DNA from: a virus
DNA: 10,466 bases
Strand: one strand, 5' to 3'
Virus record (IMG/VR): IMGVR_UViG_3300005614_000040
Coordinates: 64,001-74,466 of that record
The notes beneath the pieces are model-generated. The model searched no databases. It saw only the letters and a list, made by a program, of their open reading frames with translations, and was not told the DNA's origin. The number at the start of each line of letters is the position of its first letter. Positions within the stretch are counted from its first letter, which is position 1. Below are positions 2,495 to 10,402 of the stretch, one piece after another. Both the position numbers and the translations under genes were made by a program.

Positions 2495-2842
2495 TTACTT
2501 ACCTGCTGATGCGTGGTGGCCTGTTTTGAGATCAACACCGATACCGTCAACTTTGACGGAGGTGCCGGACTCTGCGTCGCTCTTGCCGATCTTGAACGCC
2601 TTCGATACGGCCGCAGTACGGTCGGTGGATGGAGTGCCGTTACCGTGAGGACCTGCGCCGCTGTCTTCGTTCCACGCCGGGTAGGTCTGGTATTCGGACT
2701 GCTTGAGCAGAACGTTCTTCGCCTCGGTGCCGTCCTGGGCCGTCTTGACTTCGTTTACCTTGAAGTCTTCTGGCTTGGCCATCCGGGGGTAAGTTTGCTG
2801 TTCCGAGAGGGATGCGAGTGTTCCTGTGAGTGCTTTTTCCAT
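2495..2842 (-). CDS. Hypothetical hydrophilic protein (115 aa) between terL and the portal.
   Basis: ORF with ATG at 2842. It is preceded by AAAGGAAAAATTT, a good Shine-Dalgarno sequence. It lies between the TerL stop (2875) and the portal start. Confidence 0.55.
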   Translation of the reverse strand: MEKALTGTLASLSEQQTYPRMAKPEDFKVNEVKTAQDGTEAKNVLLKQSEYQTYPAWNEDSGAGPHGNGTPSTDRTAAVSKAFKIGKSDAESGTSVKVDGIGVDLKTGHHASAGK

Positions 2843-2874: not shown

Positions 2875-4857
2875 CTAACCAACCATCGTACCCAGAATCG
2901 GGTCTAATCCATTTGCCGGAGGAGTGTATCCGTCGCTTTCGTTATTTTTCGCGTCGTCCAAACTCACCACAGGCTCGAAGCTCGGTTGACCCCAAGGATC
3001 AGTAGCTTCTTCCATATACATATTGTAGGCAGCCCGCATCCGGAAGGCTTGCTTCTGCTCGGGCGTCCACGTCCAGCTTGCGATACCTGATTCCTGGATT
3101 TGCTTGAGCACGCGAGGCGCGTAACGTGGTTGCTGCGAAATCACGTCGGGAATGTCGTTGTGACGGCGAAGATTGACCTGACAGCGAAGGAATTCTTCGT
3201 AAAGGGTTTTCAGGAATGGCAGGTAGTTGACGAACTTCAGCAAGTTGCCGACCAGTAACGGCTGGAGGGCCGCCATGCGAGCTTTCTTCGCTCCGTCTTC
3301 CCGAGTTACCGGAATCCAATCGATGCGGCTACAGACTGCAATCACCAGCGGGTCGTTGGTCTTCTGCGCCTCGGCGATGATGGTGGGTTCGATGAACTTC
3401 GATGCCCCGGCGTCTTCGACACCAATTACAAATGGATGGTGCTTGACAGCCATATCAACGATTGCCTTAGCAAGCGCGATAGGGTTTGGAAAGCGGTCGC
3501 GAACGAGATCGTTGACATAGGCGCATCCGTTGGGTCCCCAGATTACCGAGCACCCAGTCGTAAAGTCGCGGTACTTTTTACCGCTGAAAGCAAAATCCCA
3601 GGTATGAGATACCAAACCTTGGAAGGGAATTTCGACGTGCGGCACGGTCGCGCGCAGCAACATCGGAAGATCGAATACCGCTTCCGCTTCCGGAATCGGA
3701 TTCTGGTTCATCTGGCCTTCGAAACTTCCTTCTTCATCTCCACGCTGACCGAATCTATCTCGGTTGTACTCAGAGAGCAGGTAGTCGTAAGAAAGCACTT
3801 TCGGCATCAGGAGGACGCAGCCATCGGCCCCAGCCTCCTGGTAGAACAAATTCGGATTGATGCTTTTGGCCAGGAGTTCGGATCGTACTTCCTGGCGTAC
3901 GGTGATCGCGCGGCCAATGAGAATCAAGGAATTTGATGCCTTGCTCTCGATCATCTCCCAGCCAGGGCCGGAGGTTGTGGTGCCCACCGTCGAATCGATT
4001 TCCAACCCGTACATATCCGAGTCGTGATAGCGCGTACCAATTTTGGTACAATAGCCGAACGGCCGGAGCATCTTCTTATTGATCTTGAAGTTCTTGTTGA
4101 CCTTCAAGCACTGTTCTTCGTTTTCCGAGTTGCGGTTAGAAACCGTGTCGTCGCAGTGCAGAATTTCGTAGTGGTATCCAGAAAGCGTCGAGGTGATCGA
4201 CGAGGCCATGATGGTCGGCTCTCTGCGCTTGATACCTTTAGCCAGCCACACGGGGCACTGGTATTCGAAGGCGTTGGTCAGGTCCTTCTCTAACAGACAA
4301 AACTGCGGGAAGAACAAATTCATCAGCGAAGGTTCCTGAAGCTTCATCAGGAAGTGACCTTTGAGTTCGTCGAGGAAGCTCACCGCGAGGTTGTCAGCGG
4401 CGGTCAAAATCAGGATACGAATTTCGGGGAAGTTCAGAATCCACTGAACCAGGTCGGCCAATCCCGTGGTGGATTTGAAGGAACCACGCGGATACAACAG
4501 CAGGCGGTTCTTAATTTCGCTTTGCTGCGAGAGTGGTTTACTGTCATCCTTCTTGACGAAGAAGTCGAAGAAAGGCCCGTGGTTCTCTTTGCGCAGAAGG
4601 TTGGCGGAGATCGGCTGCCCTGCGGTTTCCGGGTTAGTCTCGTGGACCATGTACCCGGCCAACCATTCCAGGTCTTGCTTGGAGCGCCGGATGACCTCCT
4701 GCGCCCAATGCTGATCGTGCAGCACGCCCTGGTCGAATAGGGTTTTCAGTCCTACCCGATTCGAGTCCAGGTACTCGTAGAGATCGTCATGGCCGACCGA
4801 AGTCCAATCTACGACGCCATCGACTGCATACTTTTCTACGAGGTCTGCAAGGTTCAC
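2875..4857 (-). CDS. terL: Terminase large subunit (660 aa).
   Basis: N-terminal ATPase motifs are present. A Walker A-like LLLYPRGSFKST resembles the deviant RQxGK[ST] of terminases. A Walker B-like ILHCDD is also present. The C-terminal half carries acidic residues typical of the RNaseH-like nuclease domain (VIGVEDAG, WDFAFSGKK). The start is GTG at 4855-4857, overlapping the stop of the upstream micro-ORF as GTGA. Confidence 0.8.
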   Translation of the reverse strand: MNLADLVEKYAVDGVVDWTSVGHDDLYEYLDSNRVGLKTLFDQGVLHDQHWAQEVIRRSKQDLEWLAGYMVHETNPETAGQPISANLLRKENHGPFFDFFVKKDDSKPLSQQSEIKNRLLLYPRGSFKSTTGLADLVQWILNFPEIRILILTAADNLAVSFLDELKGHFLMKLQEPSLMNLFFPQFCLLEKDLTNAFEYQCPVWLAKGIKRREPTIMASSITSTLSGYHYEILHCDDTVSNRNSENEEQCLKVNKNFKINKKMLRPFGYCTKIGTRYHDSDMYGLEIDSTVGTTTSGPGWEMIESKASNSLILIGRAITVRQEVRSELLAKSINPNLFYQEAGADGCVLLMPKVLSYDYLLSEYNRDRFGQRGDEEGSFEGQMNQNPIPEAEAVFDLPMLLRATVPHVEIPFQGLVSHTWDFAFSGKKYRDFTTGCSVIWGPNGCAYVNDLVRDRFPNPIALAKAIVDMAVKHHPFVIGVEDAGASKFIEPTIIAEAQKTNDPLVIAVCSRIDWIPVTREDGAKKARMAALQPLLVGNLLKFVNYLPFLKTLYEEFLRCQVNLRRHNDIPDVISQQPRYAPRVLKQIQESGIASWTWTPEQKQAFRMRAAYNMYMEEATDPWGQPSFEPVVSLDDAKNNESDGYTPPANGLDPILGTMVG

Positions 4858-5012
4858 TTGACTTTCTTGAGGTTGGGATTGGCCTTCTTCGCTTTGCCGC
4901 TGGCGTGCCGCGTTGCGTTAGCGAGGATGGCCCCGGCCGCGTCCTTGGAGACGCCTTCTTTGGCCGCTATCTTGTTCTGAACCGATTTGAAACCTGGGTG
5001 CTTACTTGCCAC
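4854..5012 (-). CDS. Micro-ORF (52 aa, Lys/Ala-rich, GTG start) translationally coupled to terL.
   Basis: GTG at 5010-5012 is preceded by GGGAGG at 5-nt spacing. The ORF is open to a TGA that overlaps the terL GTG start as GTGA. Translation: V/M-ASKHPGFKSVQNKIAAKEGVSKDAAGAILANATRHASGKAKKANPNLKKVK. It is below the 60-aa cutoff of the ORF track. Confidence 0.4.
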   Translation of the reverse strand: MASKHPGFKSVQNKIAAKEGVSKDAAGAILANATRHASGKAKKANPNLKKVK

Positions 5013-5103
5013 TTTTGCCTCCCAAGACTTTCTTGGCGGCCTTCTTCGCCGCCTCTGGGGACCCGGCCTTCACTTTGATCTTCAGCTTTACTTCAGGTTT
5101 CAT
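5002..5103 (-). CDS. Micro-ORF (33 aa, very Lys-rich).
   Basis: ATG at 5101-5103 overlaps the TGA of the upstream 53-aa ORF as ATGA. AAGGAAG lies upstream. Translation: MKPEVKLKIKVKAGSPEAAKKAAKKVLGGKSGK. Confidence 0.35.
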   Translation of the reverse strand: MKPEVKLKIKVKAGSPEAAKKAAKKVLGGKSGK

Positions 5104-5261
5104 TTCTTCTTCCTTGCGTTAGATAGCGCGACTGCTACTGCTTGTTTGTCGGCTTTCTTCTTGCCGAATTTCGCGGCCGTTGCAGCGAAGGTTTTTCCGG
5201 TGTGGAATTCCTTGATATTCTCGCTGATGACTTTCTTGCTCTTACCTGGAAGAAGTGGCAT
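5100..5261 (-). CDS. Micro-ORF (53 aa, basic).
   Basis: Its ATG overlaps the TAA of the 98-aa ORF as TAATG. Translation: MPLLPGKSKKVISENIKEFHTGKTFAATAAKFGKKKADKQAVAVALSNARKKK. Coordinates are within about 1 nt. Confidence 0.45.
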   Translation of the reverse strand: MPLLPGKSKKVISENIKEFHTGKTFAATAAKFGKKKADKQAVAVALSNARKKK

Positions 5262-5557
5262 TACATCCCTGCTCCGCCACCCGGCGCGCCTGCTGCGCCT
5301 TCCTGGGCTTCCTCGGTCTGCTCGGGCATGTGCTCGTCGATGTGGGCGTGGAGCGCGGCTGCGTTCTGGATCGGGAACTGCGGCGACTCTTGCGCGCCTG
5401 CTCCCGGATTCATCATCTCGGCCGGGTCTGGTTCCTCGTCGTGGCGAACAATATAACCGCCAGCGTGTCCAGGTTTGATGTGCATCTCACGCACTTTACG
5501 GCGCGGCTTCTTGGCTTTGCCTTTTGACATCGCCGACTTGCCAGTTTCCTTTTTCAT
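5261..5557 (-). CDS. Hypothetical protein (98 aa) with a strongly basic N-terminus and an acidic, Gly/Ala/Pro-rich C-terminus. Probably disordered.
   Basis: ORF in the track with ATG at 5557. GAGG lies 4 nt upstream. A 1-nt gap separates it from the stop of the 106-aa ORF. Confidence 0.55.
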   Translation of the reverse strand: MKKETGKSAMSKGKAKKPRRKVREMHIKPGHAGGYIVRHDEEPDPAEMMNPGAGAQESPQFPIQNAAALHAHIDEHMPEQTEEAQEGAAGAPGGGAGM

Positions 5558-5558
5558 G

Positions 5559-5879
5559 TTACCTCGTCCAAATCTGCAGAGCGCAACCCGTCGAACCCAG
5601 GGTGATTTTGAAGTCGCGCCACGTCAGCGGCACGGTGAAGTCTAAAAGCAGCGGCATACGCACAGTCGAAGCCACGGGGATCAGAAGCAAATCAATCGGC
5701 GTGGACGCCCCGTCTGTGACTGTTATGGTTCCGCCCGTCACAGTACCACCTGGGCAAGTGATGAGAATTTTGGTAATGAACAGAGACCCGCCACCAGCCA
5801 ATACGCCCGTGCTCTCCCAGTAGGCAGTAGACATATCGGTGTCGATGTAGATGGGTTGCTGCGCTATGAGGTTTGCCAT
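5559..5879 (-). CDS. Hypothetical Gly/Thr-rich beta-type protein (106 aa).
   Basis: ORF in the track. The ATG is preceded by AAGGAAAAATG. It follows the 58-aa ORF after a 6-nt gap. Confidence 0.55.
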   Translation of the reverse strand: MANLIAQQPIYIDTDMSTAYWESTGVLAGGGSLFITKILITCPGGTVTGGTITVTDGASTPIDLLLIPVASTVRMPLLLDFTVPLTWRDFKITLGSTGCALQIWTR

Positions 5880-5885
5880 TTTTCC

Positions 5886-6062
5886 TTAGAGGTTTTTGAG
5901 CCGGGAAAGCATATCCCGTTTGAATTTGATTGCTCCGGCATCCACATCGAGAATCAACGTTTGGATTTTACGGGTGCGGGCATCCATCCGACGTTTGTTG
6001 TCGATCAAAACCAGGACTAAAAATACGACGGCGGCCGTGAGTGCAAAAACTAAATCTGCCAT
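5886..6062 (-). CDS. Small single-pass membrane protein (58 aa).
   Basis: Not in the track because it is under 60 aa. The ATG at 6060-6062 is preceded by TAGGAGGCGAC, an excellent Shine-Dalgarno sequence that overlaps the stop of the 239-aa ORF. Translation: MADLVFALTAAVVFLVLVLIDNKRRMDARTRKIQTLILDVDAGAIKFKRDMLSRLKNL. There is one hydrophobic helix followed by a charged tail. Confidence 0.5.
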   Translation of the reverse strand: MADLVFALTAAVVFLVLVLIDNKRRMDARTRKIQTLILDVDAGAIKFKRDMLSRLKNL

Positions 6063-6070
6063 GTCGCCTC

Positions 6071-6790
6071 CTAGCGGATAGATGCTGCGGCTACCGCGCC
6101 TCCAATTTGGATGCTGGGAACAATGAAGGGCTTGAGTTCAAGCCAGAAACGCGCCGGGAAACTGGTTGGCGGGTGAAGATAGGATTTCATCGCCTTAGTC
6201 TCGACTTGGTTCGCGGTGTCTAGCATCTGGCCCGTGGTTTTGGTAATTCCGTCCACGTTGCGCGCAGTGTCGAGCCAAACCGGATCAGCCAACAAAGTGT
6301 TGAACCGTTCAACCGCATTTCCAGCATTGACTGCAGCCAAGTCTACGTGCCCGGCGATGGGCTGAAAATAAGAGACGGTGGTATCGAGCGTGTGGAGCGT
6401 GGACGTTGCTTGCTGCGCCGTCTGCCCGAGATCGGCAACTGTGCCGCGCCCGGCAGCCAAAGTTGCGTGGATATCGGCAAACAACTGGACTTCCTGGGCG
6501 TCGAGTGCCGCGAGGTTTTTGTTCTCGTGGTTGGCCGCGACTTCGATCTGGCCGAAAGCACCACGGACAGTATTGAGGGTCTTGGCTACGTCGGCGAGAG
6601 TCCCACAGGGATGGTAATTGGCCGGGCTGCCGCAGTCTTGGTTAAGCGTGTCGAGCGTGCCAACGATGTTGGCGCTTATCTTCTGCTCGTCTTTACTCAG
6701 GGTGTAAACGAAACTTGACAGCCGCAACAGCAACAAACACGCGCACAACCCGACCGCGACGATTACGCCTGTCCGGACGGTGTCGTGCAT
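6071..6790 (-). CDS. Membrane-anchored helical protein (239 aa). It has an N-terminal TM helix and a long Ala/Thr/Leu-rich helical ectodomain with two Cys. Possibly an i-spanin or lysis-accessory protein, or an Mce-like helical protein.
   Basis: Hydrophobic segment GVIVAVGLCACLLLL near the N-terminus. The remainder shows a heptad-like Ala/Leu/Thr/Gln pattern. The ATG overlaps the stop of the upstream ORF as TAATG at 6790. Confidence 0.6.
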   Translation of the reverse strand: MHDTVRTGVIVAVGLCACLLLLRLSSFVYTLSKDEQKISANIVGTLDTLNQDCGSPANYHPCGTLADVAKTLNTVRGAFGQIEVAANHENKNLAALDAQEVQLFADIHATLAAGRGTVADLGQTAQQATSTLHTLDTTVSYFQPIAGHVDLAAVNAGNAVERFNTLLADPVWLDTARNVDGITKTTGQMLDTANQVETKAMKSYLHPPTSFPARFWLELKPFIVPSIQIGGAVAAASIR

Positions 6791-8206: not shown

Positions 8207-8282
8207 TGGACTCGGCGGCGGGAATCCAACCCGCAACTACTCGGTTAGGAACCGAGGACCCATGCTTTTAGGTGACGCCGAG
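8207..8282 (-). tRNA. tRNA-Arg (anticodon CCU, decodes AGG).
   Basis: Hand fold, 76 nt. Acceptor CTCGGCG/CGCCGAG is a perfect 7 bp. D-stem ACCT/GGGT. Anticodon stem CTCGG/CCGAG with loop TTCCTAA. T-stem GCGGG/CCCGC. CCA is encoded. The D-loop has C19 and the T-loop has G56, a compensatory swap of the usual G19:C56 pair. Confidence 0.7.
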
Positions 8283-8283
8283 A

Positions 8284-8359
8284 TGGAGAACCCGCCCGGA
8301 TTCAAACCGGGATATCAACCTTCGGAGGGTTGTGCTCTATTCTTTTGAACTACGGGTTC
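8284..8359 (-). tRNA. tRNA-Arg (anticodon CCG, decodes CGG).
   Basis: Hand fold, 76 nt. Acceptor GAACCCG/CGGGTTC. Anticodon stem CAACC/GGTTG with loop CTCCGAA. T-stem CCCGG/CCGGG with loop TTTGAAT. CCA is encoded. An A19:U56 covariation is present. A 1-nt spacer separates it from the preceding tRNA. Confidence 0.7.
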
Positions 8360-8364
8360 GTAGG

Positions 8365-8439
8365 TGGGGCGCGGACGAGGATTCAAACCTCGGTTCAGGG
8401 CTTAGAAGGACCTGGCTTATTCCATTAGCTGATCCGCGC
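8365..8439 (-). tRNA. tRNA-Arg (anticodon UCU, decodes AGA). Probable.
   Basis: Hand fold, 75 nt. Acceptor GCGCGGA/TCCGCGC is perfect. T-arm CGAGG-TTTGAAT-CCTCG. D-loop has GG. Anticodon loop CTTCTAA. The anticodon stem has one U:C mismatch and the D-stem has 3 bp. Confidence 0.55.
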
Positions 8440-8605
8440 TTATTTCTTCGGAATGAATCCGCCGCGCGACGCGAAGTTAATGCTGAAAGGCCGGGTAACC
8501 TGGGTGGTACCGTTGTGGTACGTTACTTCGAGGGCCTTACCGCGTTCGAGTCTAGGAGTCATTATTTTGAATTGTACCACAGACAGAGAAATCTGTCAAG
8601 GAAAT

Positions 8606-8681
8606 TGGTGGGTCCGGAGGGAATCGAACCCTCATCACGTCGCTTAAAAGGCGGGTCTCTAGCCAGTTGAGTTACGAACCC
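8606..8681 (-). tRNA. tRNA-Lys (anticodon UUU) with an atypical, weak anticodon stem.
   Basis: Hand fold, 76 nt. Acceptor GGGTTCG/CGGACCC has one G:U. T-arm GAGGG-TTCGATT-CCCTC. D-loop has GG. Anticodon loop CTTTTAA with U33 and A37. The two outer base pairs of the anticodon stem are C:C and C:A mismatches. Confidence 0.55.
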
Positions 8682-8682
8682 T

Positions 8683-8759
8683 TGGTGCGCCGGGCTGGAT
8701 TTGAACCAGCATCATTCTCCTTAAGAGGGAGATATAATCAGCCGTTATACGACCGACGC
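8683..8759 (-). tRNA. tRNA-Lys (anticodon CUU).
   Basis: Hand fold, 77 nt. Acceptor GCGTCGG/CCGGCGC has one G:U. Anticodon stem TCTCC/GGAGA with loop CTCTTAA. T-arm GCTGG-TTCAAAT-CCAGC. CCA is encoded. Only 1 nt separates it from the preceding tRNA-Lys(UUU). Confidence 0.65.
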
Positions 8760-8761
8760 AA

Positions 8762-8855
8762 TGGTAGAGGAGGAGGGAATCGAACCCTTACTGGCATCGG
8801 TCATCTACCGACTACAGAGGCTATAAGGCTCCGCCGCGCGCCCGCGCTCTCCTCT
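8762..8855 (-). ncRNA. tRNA-like element (about 94 nt with CCA) with canonical 3' half but an aberrant 5' half and anticodon region. Possibly a degenerate long-variable-arm tRNA or a tRNA 3'-fragment.
   Basis: Textbook T-arm AAGGG-TTCGATT-CCCTC, acceptor 3' strand CTCCTCT, discriminator A and CCA. A perfectly complementary AGAGGAG lies 94 nt away, but both strands are low complexity. The intervening sequence is extremely GC-rich (CGCGGGCGCGCGGCGG). No anticodon loop with U33 carrying a Ser/Leu/Tyr anticodon could be drawn. The 5' 50 nt lie inside the 3' end of the GT2 coding sequence. Confidence 0.35.
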
Positions 8856-9479
8856 AAAAAATTCTTTCGGCAGACTATTCCTGTCCACCACAGGCCACCC
8901 TGTAGGTTTCTGGTTGGCGGAGTGGAGCACGCAAACCATATTATCACCTGCGGGTTTGGAAGTAAACCAAGGAAACGCCCGGTTCACAAAAATCAGGTCT
9001 TCGCCGTAGGAAACTTTTTCGTCGAACAGATGGCCGAGTGCCCACTGTCGGCGGTAAATCAGCGTTGCGCCCCACAAGCAACTACCCGAGTACCGCGACG
9101 CCTCGCCTGTGTTTTCGTTCCAAAAGTAACAGGAACCGTACCCACCCAGCTTCAATTCTTCCGCGCCCATCATTGCCACTTGATCGGCAAGGCGGTACGG
9201 AGAAGACCAATCGTCGGCATCAAAATGGCAGATAAACTCACCGCGCGCAACCCGAATACCTGCGTTTCGTTTTTCGGCAAGGTTCGCGGCTGGCTTGAAA
9301 ATGTAGGTGACACCTGGTACATCTTTGACCAGGTCGGCGATAGGTTCATCGCCGTCATCTACAACAATGAGTTCCTTGTTCGGCCAAGTCTGGGATAGGT
9401 AACACTCGATGGCGCGGACGACGCGACCTCGCATGTTGTGGTGACAAAGCAAAACCGACACCATCTCAGTTGTGGACAT
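8805..9479 (-). CDS. Glycosyltransferase family 2 (GT-A fold), 224 aa.
   Basis: The N-terminal beta1-alpha1 signature is VSVLLCHHNMRGRVVRAIECYLSQTWPNKELIVVDDGDEP, of the V-S-V-x-x-x-x-x-N ... E-I-I-V-V-D-D-G type. A downstream DXD-type motif FDADDW is present. The ATG at 9477-9479 overlaps the stop of the upstream GT by 14 nt. Confidence 0.75.
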   Translation of the reverse strand: MSTTEMVSVLLCHHNMRGRVVRAIECYLSQTWPNKELIVVDDGDEPIADLVKDVPGVTYIFKPAANLAEKRNAGIRVARGEFICHFDADDWSSPYRLADQVAMMGAEELKLGGYGSCYFWNENTGEASRYSGSCLWGATLIYRRQWALGHLFDEKVSYGEDLIFVNRAFPWFTSKPAGDNMVCVLHSANQKPTGWPVVDRNSLPKEFFRGERGRAAEPYSLCSR

Positions 9480-10077
9480 ACATCAAATCCCTGGCCACAC
9501 CCCACTTCAATTTCTTCGTCAAATCCTGCAGCGTTGTTCTGTCTACGCCGGAGCACGCGGGCACCAGGGGTTTGTTCAGCCAACCTTTGAACTTGGCGCG
9601 TTTCACTAAGAACGATGGCTTATATCCCGGAAAGCCGGGTTTGCCAAGCTGCAGGACTCGGTAGCCGTCAATTCCGCAGGTCTCAGGCCCGGTCAAGGTT
9701 GACTCACACAGCACCAGATCGAGATTATTCCTGACCGCCTCGGTCAACATTCTTTGTGTCCACTGCGGCGGATAGTAGCAGTCTTCGCAGGGAAAGCAAA
9801 CCCATTTACCTTTGGCCTGGTTAAGCCCGACTTCTGATGACCAGTAGCAGTCTGATACTTTGATCTTTCCGGCCGTTCGCAGATAGCGAAACCGCTTGTC
9901 CTTCAACTTCTCGACGATCCGCTTCTGCTGGTGCGCGACGGTTTTGTCTTCCGTGTTGTCGGTTACGATCACTTCGTAGTCTTCGTGGGTTTGACCCTTG
10001 ATTGACCACAAACACGCCGCCAGGAAATCTGGTCGATTGTAGAGCGAAACAACGTAGCTGACTTCGACCTGGGGCAT
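9466..10077 (-). CDS. Glycosyltransferase family 2-like (about 203 aa from MPQVEV).
   Basis: GT2 N-terminal signature EVSYVVSLYNRPDFLAACLWSIKGQTHEDYEVIVTDNTED. The ATG is at 10075-10077. The longer track ORF (to 10278) would run through the tRNA-Pro gene, so the internal start is preferred. Confidence 0.65.
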   Translation of the reverse strand: MPQVEVSYVVSLYNRPDFLAACLWSIKGQTHEDYEVIVTDNTEDKTVAHQQKRIVEKLKDKRFRYLRTAGKIKVSDCYWSSEVGLNQAKGKWVCFPCEDCYYPPQWTQRMLTEAVRNNLDLVLCESTLTGPETCGIDGYRVLQLGKPGFPGYKPSFLVKRAKFKGWLNKPLVPACSGVDRTTLQDLTKKLKWGVARDLMYVHN

Positions 10078-10234
10078 TTTTAATGGCACCGGACTGGCGA
10101 ATTGGACGCCACTCGGAGGTTTTGGAGACCTCTGTGATCCCAGATCGTCCGGCAAAAATGGAGCACCCGAGTGGAGTCTAACCACCGTCTCGATGTTCGT
10201 AGCATCGTGTCCTATACGTTGAACGACAGGCGCA

Positions 10235-10310
10235 TGGTCGGAAAGGTGAGATTCGAACTCACGTCGTCTCGCTCCCAAAGCGAGTGCCTAAGCCTCTAGG
10301 CTACTTTCCG
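10235..10310 (-). tRNA. tRNA-Pro (anticodon UGG).
   Basis: Fully canonical hand fold, 76 nt. Acceptor CGGAAAG/CTTTCCG. D-stem GCCT/AGGC with GG in the loop. Anticodon stem CTCGC/GCGAG with loop TTTGGGA. T-arm GTGAG-TTCGAAT-CTCAC. Discriminator A and CCA are encoded. Confidence 0.85.
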
Positions 10311-10315
10311 AAAAA

Positions 10316-10402
10316 TGGTCTAGGTAGCTGGATTTGAACCAGCGTAACCCCGAAGGGACACGTTCCCGAAACGTGTGGCAGACCGGACTTGCCGATACCT
10401 AG
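10316..10402 (-). tRNA. Type-II (long variable arm) tRNA, 87 nt, whose anticodon reads CGG by hand folding. This is a proline-codon anticodon on a Ser/Leu-type body.
   Basis: Acceptor CTAGGTA/TACCTAG is perfect. D-stem is 3 bp (GGC/GCC) with an 11-nt loop containing GG. Anticodon stem CACGT/ACGTG with loop TTCGGGA, so positions 34-36 are CGG. The variable arm is CCC-TTCG-GGG. T-arm GCTGG-TTCAAAT-CCAGC. Discriminator A and CCA. Confidence 0.55.

What the first reader, a model, noticed from the sequence alone, without database searches (positions are those of the whole stretch)
4854..5557. Chain of unannotated lysine-rich micro-ORFs translationally coupled into terL, where a small terminase is expected
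Three ORFs of 53, 33 and 52 aa lie between the 98-aa ORF and terL. All fall below the ORF-track cutoff. Each stop overlaps the next start: TAATG, then ATGA, then a GTG behind a GGGAGG Shine-Dalgarno sequence, then GTGA into the terL GTG start. Together with the 98-aa protein they are extremely basic and rich in K, A and G, resembling small nucleic-acid-binding or histone-like peptides. No ORF of canonical small-terminase size or HTH character precedes terL. These peptides may substitute for or make up the DNA-recognition component of the packaging machinery. Alternatively they could be packaged DNA-binding proteins, or one frameshifted product. The overlap pattern makes chance ORFs unlikely.
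Basis: seen in the sequence. Interest (0 to 1): 0.6.

Follow-up and report, generated by a model that had tools for sequence, protein, structure and literature searches.

The report
Four real small genes before terL
The tiny overlapping reading frames in front of this phage's DNA-packaging motor gene are genuine, conserved genes, but they behave as portable accessory genes rather than a replacement for the missing small terminase; one belongs to a very large, highly conserved phage family that no curated library searched here describes.

Summary
On the minus strand, ORFs of 98, 53, 33 and 52 aa tile 5557-4854 and run into a GTG-started terL, with TAATG, ATGA, GGGAGG-N5-GTG and GTGA junctions. 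All four are real genes: relatives keep them in frame, with dN/dS about 0.02-0.2 where it could be computed, like terL. The 53-aa gene is Pfam DUF6496. The 52-aa gene belongs to an unnamed family (at least 1,211 clusters, 21 invariant residues, no Pfam, PHROG or NCBIfam model). The 33-aa gene is a lineage orphan. The 98-aa protein is not basic overall (+10 N-terminal part, -11 C-terminal part).

The small-terminase reading is not supported. Close relatives lack one or more of the micro-genes, and L005 (terL about 51% identical) lacks all three. Elsewhere the 52-aa family sits next to proteases, portals, tail fibres or unrelated terLs, and is within 300 bp of a terL in only 4 of 74 loci. Frameshifting is refuted, because relatives have separate TAA-ATG junctions.

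Best reading: independent accessory late genes, translationally coupled in the morphogenesis operon. The 52-aa family is probably virion-associated; a fused homologue in phage Atu_ph07 was detected in the published virion proteome. Only the 98-aa family is syntenic with terL across the lineage. Function remains unproven.

The parts
5559..5879 (-). 106-aa upstream gene. Its TAA stop ends one base before the 98-aa ATG, so it is the real head of the stacked run.
   Evidence: Conserved as 106-110 aa in L024-L028. No family match.
5261..5557 (-). 98-aa gene with a basic N-terminal part, a His-containing motif (MHIKPGHAGGYIVRHD ... LHAHIDEHM), an acidic stretch and a Gly/Ala tail. It is the only member of the chain syntenic with terL across the whole lineage.
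   Evidence: Six clusters in 5.8 billion proteins. dN/dS 0.06-0.19. Homologues lie upstream of terL in L001/L002 and L005. Weaker profile hits to L096:2223-2486 (E 1.2e-4) and Tunturi_3 gp147 (E 0.079) among 22,552 ORFs. AF2 predicts it mostly disordered, pLDDT 57.
5100..5261 (-). 53-aa gene, a member of Pfam DUF6496 / phrog_2423 (function unknown). Its start shares the A of the upstream TAA (TAATG).
   Evidence: Pfam 25.1 bits against a cut-off of 24; phrog_2423 E 3.4e-9. 149 clusters, mostly 62-92% identical. 14 invariant columns. dN/dS 0.02-0.13.
5002..5103 (-). 33-aa lysine-rich orphan gene (MKPEVKLKIKVKAGSPEAAKKAAKKVLGGKSGK), joined to the 53-aa gene by an ATGA overlap.
   Evidence: Conserved at 32-34 aa in L025-L028 with in-frame indels and pN 0.15-0.25 against pS 0.68-1.0. 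Only 2 representatives at E<=1e-3 among 1.84 billion, one being itself.
5018..5023 (-). GGGAGG Shine-Dalgarno sequence, five bases upstream of the GTG start of the 52-aa gene, inside the 33-aa ORF.
   Evidence: Read directly from the sequence.
4854..5012 (-). 52-aa gene (GTG start), a member of a large unnamed phage family with consensus HPGFKAVQNKIAKKEGVSKxAAGAILANATRxASAxAKKANPNLKKVK. Its TGA overlaps the terL GTG (GTGA).
   Evidence: At least 1,211 clusters. At least 555 IMG/VR stretches. 21 invariant columns. No Pfam, PHROG or NCBIfam match at E<=1. AF2 gives three helices, pLDDT 77.5. dN/dS 0.06-0.20.
2875..4857 (-). Large terminase gene (660 aa) with a GTG start and no Shine-Dalgarno sequence. 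It is probably translated by coupling to the 52-aa gene.
   Evidence: phrog_38 E 1.1e-42. Weak match to the T7-type terL model. Upstream sequence shown. Relatives also have GTG starts at or next to the upstream stop.

Best explanation
The region holds four genuine, separately initiated small protein genes inside the late (virion morphogenesis) operon of an uncultured podovirus-like soil phage. The phage is distantly related to the Acidobacteria phage Tunturi_3. SHOWN: all four genes are under purifying selection and kept in frame. SHOWN: they are modular. Relatives with homologous terL gain, lose or replace them individually. The 53-aa (DUF6496) and 52-aa families also occur in hundreds of unrelated phages, next to quite different late genes. 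INFERRED: because stops and starts overlap, no promoter or terminator lies between the genes, and terL has a GTG start without a ribosome-binding site, ribosomes finishing one gene reinitiate on the next. The chain would therefore also set the (low) translation level of terL. INFERRED, medium-low confidence: the 52-aa protein is a small, strongly basic three-helix protein that is made late and associates with the virion, most plausibly binding the packaged nucleic acid. The micro-proteins are not the small terminase. If this lineage has a terL-linked partner, the best candidate is the 98-aa protein, not the micro-ORFs.
For: Coding: frame conservation, dN/dS 0.02-0.2 where computable; codon-position GC like terL; independent gene calls. 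Family membership: DUF6496 / phrog_2423; 52-aa family. Modularity: L001/L002, L003, L005 and L028 differ in content; the two families co-occur in 3 of 80 loci. No terL linkage: next gene is a head protease, portal, tail fibre or another terL family; terL within 2.5 kb downstream in 13 of 74 loci, within 300 bp in 4 of 74; 1 of 66 and 0 of 66 for DUF6496. Late-module context: (capsid, virion structural protein, sheath/tube/baseplate, an 1,851-aa protein); 568 of 707 neighbours lie on the same strand. Phage-restricted: only 22 hits in 185,579 species genomes, all MAGs. Virion association: Atu_ph07 AUZ95303.1 carries the domain at residues 48-95. It corresponds to gp544 of PMC6102473 Table S5, with 9 unique peptides and 32% coverage; the numbering was mapped by seven exact molecular-weight matches. 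Coupling.
Against: No direct evidence of function exists for any of the four. The Atu_ph07 phage stock was only PEG-purified, and its 131 'virion' proteins include enzymes. The homologue there is a domain of a 278-aa protein, not a free 52-mer. A terL lies within 2.5 kb downstream about three times more often than my rough chance estimate of about 5%, in roughly six lineages, and the position immediately before terL is kept down to 46% terL identity (L003/L004). Some packaging-related role is therefore not excluded. Fold searches gave no significant analogue, so DNA binding rests on charge and a helix-turn-helix-like prediction only.
Confidence: 0.6

Rival explanations
1. The 98-aa protein is a non-canonical small terminase and the three micro-genes are passengers inserted between terS and terL. 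This would mirror T7, where the 89-aa gp18 is separated from gp19 by genes 18.5 and 18.7.
For: The 98-aa family is the only chain member present in every relative with enough upstream sequence, including L005. It has weak profile hits to the gene directly upstream of terL in Tunturi_3 (gp147, E 0.079) and to L096, which has a different terL family (E 1.2e-4); these were the only two non-member hits among 22,552 ORFs. terL is weakly T7-type. T7's order of tail fibre, holin, TerS, small genes, TerL parallels the window's order of a 58-aa TM protein, 106 aa, 98 aa, micro-genes, terL. The N-terminal 40 residues carry +10 charge.
Against: No similarity to T7 gp18 (hhalign probability 0.1) or to any TerS profile. 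AF2 predicts it mostly disordered, with one 10-residue helix and no HTH or oligomerisation helix, though the alignment had only 6 sequences. The gp147 match is marginal.
Confidence: 0.15
2. The micro-proteins are host-directed effectors made late or delivered with the DNA, for example binding the host nucleoid, ribosome or a defence component, rather than structural passengers of the virion.
For: The very high conservation (about 70-90% identity, 21 invariant residues) across phages from MAG bins of many phyla suggests a universally conserved target. The lysine-rich composition resembles ribosomal or nucleoid proteins. DUF6496 also occurs in bacteria according to Pfam (my own knowledge). In L014 the 52-aa gene is followed by cold-shock-domain genes, and in 11 loci a Dps-like DNA-binding gene lies nearby.
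Against: Host-takeover and anti-defence genes are usually early, fast-evolving and clustered away from structural genes (my own knowledge). Here 568 of 707 neighbours lie on the same strand, and the identifiable ones are mostly virion or packaging genes. The Atu_ph07 homologue was found in the particle preparation.
Confidence: 0.2
3. One reading: the lysine-rich micro-peptides together form or replace the DNA-recognition (small terminase) component of the packaging machine.
For: They occupy the position where terS is expected. No TerS profile match exists nearby. The 52-aa gene stays immediately before terL down to 46% terL identity and also lies near terLs of other families in L101, L096 and the Bradyrhizobium phage. 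Its predicted fold has a helix-turn-helix-like element.
Against: L005 (terL about 51% identical) has none of the three; L028 lacks the 53-aa gene; L001/L002 lack the 33-aa gene. In most phages the 52-aa family is not beside terL (4 of 74 within 300 bp) and instead sits next to a protease, portal or tail fibre. DUF6496 is essentially never beside terL. Near-identical sequence across phages with unrelated terLs conflicts with the pac/cos-specific and TerL-specific co-evolution expected of TerS (my own knowledge). No similarity to T7 gp18.
Confidence: 0.05
4. The 33-aa and 52-aa ORFs, or the whole chain, are read as one protein through programmed ribosomal frameshifting.
For: The 11-nt overlap in the window and in L028 includes an A-rich stretch (GGCAAAAGUGGCAAG).
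Against: In L025, L026 and L027 the 33-aa ORF ends in TAA and the next gene starts with its own ATG right at or after it, with no overlap. A strong GGGAGG sits five bases before the window's GTG. Hundreds of family members are free-standing 50-57-aa proteins with their own ATG. The 33-aa gene is absent from nearly all carriers of the 52-aa gene.
Confidence: 0.02
5. The micro-ORFs are chance open frames in a non-coding spacer or on the wrong strand.
For: They are short. Antisense frames are also open for up to 165 codons.
Against: dN/dS is far below 1 with saturated synonymous change, and indels are in frame. There are family matches in curated and bulk databases. The coding GC pattern is typical. 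Antisense frames are not conserved in phase or length.
Confidence: 0.01

Closest known systems
Pfam DUF6496 (PF20106) / PHROG phrog_2423
   Same: The 53-aa protein scores above Pfam's gathering threshold. Its close homologues carry the precomputed PF20106 label. It shares the conserved ...ADKQAVAVALS..R.. C-terminal helix.
   Different: The window protein belongs to a tight phage subfamily (MPLKxGKSKKVVSENIxEFHTGKTY...) that is mostly 62-92% identical. The family has no known function, and no paper in the library mentions it.
Unnamed 'HPGF...AGAILA...NPxLKKV' phage micro-protein family (examples: Bradyrhizobium phage ppBeUSDA76-2 WAX24408.1; residues 48-95 of Agrobacterium phage Atu_ph07 AUZ95303.1, which is gp544 in Attai et al. 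2018; UniProt A0A6J5M5M3)
   Same: The 52-aa protein has every invariant residue of the family and the same length. It is about 70% identical to the cultured-phage members. Its predicted fold superposes on them at TM 0.80-0.85.
   Different: In the window it uses a GTG start overlapping the preceding gene and abuts terL. Most members sit elsewhere in late modules. The Atu_ph07 copy is fused into a 278-aa protein. The family is absent from Pfam, PHROGs and NCBIfam.
T7 gene 18 (small terminase, 89 aa) - 18.5/18.7 - gene 19 arrangement
   Same: A T7-type terL (weak match) is preceded by a stack of small genes downstream of a small membrane protein or holin-like gene. Gene packing is tight.
   Different: None of the 106-, 98- or 52-aa proteins resembles gp18. 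The intervening T7 genes are spanins, whereas the ones here are soluble lysine-rich proteins.
Canonical small terminase subunits (lambda Nu1, P22 gp3, SPP1 G1P, T4 gp16)
   Same: Position immediately upstream of terL. Possible helix-turn-helix element in the 52-aa protein.
   Different: Too small (33-53 aa against about 90-200 aa). No oligomerisation domain is predicted. Not co-inherited with terL. Conserved across phages with unrelated terLs. No profile match.
Small basic proteins packaged with viral DNA (for example T4 internal proteins; adenovirus protein VII/mu) - an analogy from my own knowledge
   Same: Very basic, small, encoded among late/structural genes. One homologue was detected in a virion preparation, mostly in the lowest gel band.
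   Different: No sequence or fold relationship was shown. Packaging and DNA binding are untested. The strong residue-level conservation suggests a specific fold or partner rather than mere charge.

Membership tests
Small terminase subunit (TerS) | Sequence or profile similarity to a known TerS family | tested here: not met
   No TerS hit for any of the 106-, 98-, 53-, 33- or 52-aa proteins in Pfam or PHROGs or NCBIfam; the 98-aa family was rescanned in PHROGs. hhalign against T7 gp18 gives probability 0.1 and BLASTP gives no alignment for the 106-aa protein. PDB profile searches were empty.
Small terminase subunit (TerS) | N-terminal DNA-binding (HTH) domain plus helical oligomerisation core, about 90-200 aa | tested here: not met
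   The 52-aa model has only three short helices (8-19, 23-35, 39-44). The 98-aa model is mostly disordered. The 33- and 53-aa proteins are too short. Caveat: only monomers were predicted, and the 98-aa alignment was shallow.
Small terminase subunit (TerS) | Co-inheritance and tight synteny with its cognate terL | tested here: not met
   For the micro-genes: L005, L028 and L001/L002 lack one or more of them. terL is within 300 bp in 4 of 74 loci (52-aa family) and 0 of 66 loci (DUF6496). For the 98-aa family alone this feature is met within the lineage.
Small terminase subunit (TerS) | Binds the pac/cos site and stimulates TerL ATPase/nuclease | not testable with these tools
   Needs biochemistry.
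Pfam DUF6496 (PF20106) | HMM score at or above the gathering threshold (24 bits) | tested here: met
   The 53-aa protein scores 25.1 bits, E 2.3e-5, covering profile positions 6-50 of 58. Homologues P0127, P0128 and others carry precomputed PF20106.5.
Unnamed HPGF/AGAILA 52-aa phage family | Invariant residues H5 P6 G7 F8 I15 A16 G20 S22 A26-A31 (AGAILA) R35 A37 A41 N45 P46 L48 V51, and length about 50-57 aa | tested here: met
   The window protein has all 21 invariant columns of the 40-sequence alignment A1. Top hits reach E values down to 3.5e-23.
Programmed -1/+1 frameshift product | An overlap with a slippery site conserved among relatives, and no independent start for the downstream frame | tested here: not met
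   L025, L026 and L027 have TAA followed by a separate ATG. The window has a strong SD plus GTG.
HU/IHF or other histone-like DNA-binding folds | Significant structural match | tested here: not met
Virion (packaged) protein | Detected in purified particles | tested here: inconclusive
   The Atu_ph07 fusion homologue gp544 was found with 9 peptides and 32% coverage in a PEG-purified preparation (PMC6102473 Table S5). There are no data for a free-standing 52-mer or for this phage.

The most novel reading that the evidence does not exclude
The HPGF/AGAILA 52-aa family is a pan-phage micro-protein that is co-packaged with, or bound to, the genome (a 'phage protamine' or genome-end/DNA-handling factor). 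It would be shared by podo-, myo-, jumbo and crAss-type phages across many host phyla. In this lineage it would work at the terminase step together with the His-rich 98-aa protein, as a split, non-canonical substitute for a small terminase.
Probability: 0.12. Interest if true: 0.75.

Novelty: new member of a known kind. Interest (0 to 1): 0.4.

Why it matters
Genes under about 60 codons are routinely dropped by annotation; the 52-aa gene was missed in L028 because of its GTG start. Here four such genes are shown to be real. One belongs to a family of more than a thousand sequence clusters that is conserved far better than typical phage proteins, including its own neighbouring terL. That family spans very different phage types, yet it has no entry in Pfam, PHROGs or NCBIfam. 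Conservation at that level implies a specific, widely shared function in late infection or in the virion, and it is cheap to test because a 52-residue peptide can be synthesised. The work also corrects a tempting misreading: a missing small terminase is not evidence that whatever sits in its place does its job. Finally, it points to the 98-aa protein as the better candidate for a terL partner in this poorly known group of phages related to an Acidobacteria phage.

Full report
1. What is there. All genes in the window lie on the minus strand. Reading 5' to 3' on that strand, the order is: 210 aa, 173 aa, a 239-aa protein with an N-terminal membrane segment, a 58-aa membrane protein, 106 aa (5559-5879), 98 aa (5261-5557), 53 aa (5100-5261), 33 aa (5002-5103), 52 aa (4854-5012, GTG start), terL (2875-4857, GTG start, 660 aa), 115 aa, portal (380-2488), 114 aa. 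The stack begins one gene earlier, because the 106-aa ORF's TAA ends one base before the 98-aa ATG. terL matches phrog_38 (E 1e-42) and, weakly, NCBI's T7-type terL model. The portal matches the SU10 portal family. The only cultured relative is the Acidobacteria podovirus Tunturi_3, with terL about 27% identical (PMC11924767).

2. Are the ORFs real? Yes, all four. Metagenomic contigs L025, L026 and L027 (terL 81% identical for L026 and 88% for L027; the L025 contig ends just inside terL) carry the same 98/53/33/52 chain. L028 (terL 80% identical) carries 98/33/52. Nei-Gojobori estimates give pN far below pS for every gene and pair. Where dS was not saturated, dN/dS is 0.06-0.19 (98 aa), 0.02-0.13 (53 aa), 0-0.15 (33 aa) and 0.06-0.20 (52 aa), against 0.07 for terL. 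The 33-aa ORF varies between 32 and 34 codons through in-frame indels. L025 and L027 differ in it only synonymously. GC by codon position looks like terL. The long antisense ORFs (up to 163 aa) are composition artefacts whose phase and length are not conserved. No promoter-like or terminator-like signal above chance lies within the chain.

3. Composition. The three micro-proteins are strongly basic: net +11, +9 and +10, with pI 10.4-10.6. The 98-aa protein is not. Its first 40 residues carry +10 and the rest -11, giving pI 6.6. That part of the observation needed correcting.

4. What the four genes are.
(a) The 53-aa protein passes Pfam's threshold for DUF6496 (25.1 bits against 24) and matches phrog_2423, both of unknown function. 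It belongs to a tight subfamily of at least 149 clusters, mostly 62-92% identical. No paper in the library mentions DUF6496.
(b) The 52-aa protein has no match in Pfam, PHROGs or NCBIfam even at E<=1. It nevertheless has at least 1,211 cluster-level relatives in the 5.8-billion-protein collection. The 120 listed are mostly 50-57 aa and 73-98% identical. There are at least 555 hits in IMG/VR, and 21 of about 52 columns are invariant in a 40-sequence alignment. In 185,579 species genomes it appears only 22 times, always in MAGs, mostly on short contigs that look viral, binned to many phyla. It is therefore essentially a phage family. Cultured carriers are Bradyrhizobium phage ppBeUSDA76-2 and the 490-kb Agrobacterium jumbo phage Atu_ph07, both about 70% identical.
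(c) The 33-aa protein is an orphan. An exhaustive HMMER search of 1.84 billion representatives found only itself and one 38-aa relative.
(d) The 98-aa protein has six clusters.

5. Test of the small-terminase idea. Four lines of evidence argue against it.
- Dispensability. Phages with clearly homologous terL differ in content. L001/L002 (61-64% identical) have the 98-like gene, a 71-aa Cys-rich gene, a DUF6496 gene, a 93-aa gene, then the 52-aa gene, and no 33-aa gene. L003/L004 (46%) keep the 52-aa gene directly before terL, but DUF6496 is fused to the end of a 145-aa protein and a 189-aa Cys-rich gene is inserted. L005 (51%) has only the 98-like gene plus an unrelated 95-aa gene. L028 lacks DUF6496.
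- Context elsewhere. In 80 IMG/VR loci carrying the 52-aa family, the next large gene downstream is a head maturation protease (L035 group), a portal (L048), a tail fibre/spike (L097; L046 shares its N-terminal domain), a terL of another family (L101), or unknown. Other contexts include a crAss-type capsid block, a myovirus sheath/tube/baseplate block, the end of an 1,851-aa gene, and an SLT lysozyme followed by cold-shock genes. Of 707 neighbours within 2.5 kb, 568 lie on the same strand.
- Distance to terL. A terL, detected by iterative searches from eight seeds, starts within 2.5 kb downstream in 13 of 74 loci but within 300 bp in only 4. That is a modest enrichment over my rough expectation of about 5%, concentrated in a few lineages, and not an obligate link. 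For DUF6496 the figures are 1 of 66 and 0 of 66. The two families co-occur in 3 of 80 loci and are not homologous.
- Evolutionary behaviour. A protein that stays about 70-90% identical across phages with unrelated terLs does not behave like a small terminase, which must match its own packaging site and its own TerL (my own knowledge).

No protein near terL matches any TerS profile or T7 gp18. By contrast, more distant podoviruses with related terLs (KPP25, CW02) have an unannotated 232-aa or 165-aa gene in the TerS position. The absence of a normal-sized terS here is therefore real, though I examined only about 24 kb of a 74-kb genome.

6. Frameshifting. In L025, L026 and L027 the 33-aa ORF ends in TAA and the 52-aa gene begins with its own ATG at or immediately after it. 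The window and L028 differ only in having GTG instead of ATG and a five-codon extension of the 33-aa ORF (GGKSGK). Given the strong GGGAGG at the right spacing and hundreds of free-standing family members, a fused product is not needed and not supported.

8. One piece of experimental evidence. In Atu_ph07 the domain occupies residues 48-95 of the 278-aa protein AUZ95303.1. Attai et al. 2018 (PMC6102473) list virion-associated proteins by gp number. GenBank order plus 53 reproduces seven listed molecular weights exactly: gp544 31.80, gp548 13.65, gp561 17.79, gp574 52.57, gp576 52.20, gp577 14.42 and gp578 19.16 kDa. gp544 was detected with 9 unique peptides and 32% coverage, in gel bands 4-13 and most abundantly in band 13. 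Proteins of about 7-9 kDa on that list (gp514, gp210) were also found in band 13, so I take it to be the lowest-mass band, which hints at processing. The stock was only PEG-purified and the list includes enzymes, so this is supportive rather than conclusive.

9. The 98-aa protein deserves separate mention. A profile of eight members, searched against all 22,552 six-frame ORFs of every locus fetched (1.86 Mb), found only two other sequences below E=1. One is an 87-aa protein in L096 (E 1.2e-4). The other is Tunturi_3 gp147 (E 0.079), the gene immediately upstream of terL in that circular genome. Both share the pattern [M/I]-x-I-x(2-7)-[G/E]-G-[Y/F/H]-x-[V/I]-x-H ... L-x-x-H-[V/I/L]-x-x-H. L096 has a different terL family but the same order: tail-fibre-like gene, 98-like gene, 93 aa, 52-aa family, three small genes, terL. 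T7 has a comparable order of tail fibre, holin, 89-aa TerS, two small genes, TerL. If any gene of the chain is a terL partner, it is this one. The matches are weak, however, and nothing about its predicted structure resembles a small terminase.

10. Mechanism proposed. Shown: there are four separate genes under purifying selection, and they are modular and largely independent of terL. Inferred: translation proceeds along the stack by termination-reinitiation. The 98-, 53-, 33- and 52-aa genes have recognisable SD-like sequences, whereas terL has none before its GTG, as in the relatives. TerL output is therefore probably tied to, and lower than, that of the gene before it. Inferred with lower confidence: the 52-aa protein is a late, virion-associated basic helical protein that binds nucleic acid. 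The 53-aa and 33-aa proteins are of unknown role. Rivals are scored in the structured fields.

11. Verdict. The sequence observation is right, and the ORFs are real and mostly unannotated. The headline interpretation (a substitute small terminase) is not supported, and frameshifting is refuted. What remains of interest is a very large, unusually conserved and uncatalogued phage micro-protein family, plus a lineage-specific 98-aa protein that tracks terL. Interest 0.4; new member of a known kind.

Noticed in passing
window 8207-8759 and 10159-10402 (minus strand): Two tRNA arrays with eight genes: Arg-CCT, Arg-CCG, Arg-TCT, Lys-TTT, Lys-CTT, Arg-ACG, Pro-TGG, Pro-CGG (Rfam confirms six). Both lysine isoacceptors and four arginine tRNAs sit a few kb from a run of very lysine-rich genes. 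I did not test whether codon use matches.
   Followed up: partly
window 8805-9479 and 9466-10278 (minus strand): Two family-2 glycosyltransferase genes (Pfam PF00535, E 8e-19 and 8e-17) lie between the tRNA arrays. The 270-aa ORF as listed runs over tRNA-Arg and tRNA-Pro, and the Pfam match starts at residue 74, so the true start is probably internal (near MPQVEVSY...).
   Followed up: partly
window 5886-6062 and 6071-6790 (minus strand): A 58-aa protein with one hydrophobic segment, and a 239-aa protein with an N-terminal membrane segment, lie just upstream of the stack. The position parallels the T7 holin gene 17.5 before gene 18, so this may be a lysis cassette. No family matches.
   Followed up: no
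L028:5295-5453: The 52-aa homologue in this contig (GTG start overlapping the 33-aa ORF, as in the window) was not called by the source's gene caller. This is an example of systematic under-annotation of the family.
   Followed up: yes
L024:7240-7653 and L024:9995-10468 (same phage, beyond the window): An HNH endonuclease (phrog_5046, E 5e-9) lies two genes after the portal, and an endonuclease VII-like gene (phrog_3322, E 2e-37) follows the major head protein. HNH genes next to terminase/portal genes are linked to cos-type packaging in other phages (my own knowledge), which could bear on how this phage manages without a recognisable small terminase.
   Followed up: no
L009:7075-7410 (Tunturi_3 gp147), L096:2223-2486, window 5261-5557: The 98-like proteins are rich in conserved histidines (for example SHNGGHVITHKHHSPEHH...AQHVMKH in gp147), which suggests metal binding. 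They are the only chain members syntenic with terL across the lineage.
   Followed up: partly
L039:1562-1889 and L076:2422-2779: In two unrelated viral contigs the 52-aa family gene is followed directly by a DUF6496-subfamily gene. This is the reverse of the window's order, and there is no 33-aa gene between them.
   Followed up: no
L003:13-908: The two proteins upstream of terL in this 46%-identity relative (152 and 145 aa) each contain a G-x-A-[KR]-V-H-x-G-E-x-[IV]-V motif. One of them hits a tape-measure PHROG weakly (phrog_15478, E 0.0011). The 145-aa protein ends in a DUF6496-like segment.
   Followed up: no
L026:239-1441: An IS1595-family transposase gene (Pfam Zn_ribbon_IS1595 + DDE_Tnp_IS1595) sits on the opposite strand in the phage contig, upstream of the structural genes.
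   Followed up: no
L216:14966-15802 (Atu_ph07 AUZ95303.1): The gp numbers in Attai et al. 2018 Table S5 are offset by +53 from GenBank CDS order in this part of the genome. gp544 (31.8 kDa) was most abundant in band 13, where proteins of about 7-9 kDa were also found, which suggests proteolytic processing of the protein that carries the 52-aa domain.
   Followed up: partly
window 2495-2842 (minus strand): A 115-aa low-complexity protein sits between terL and the portal. It is conserved at the same length and position in L027. No family match.
   Followed up: no
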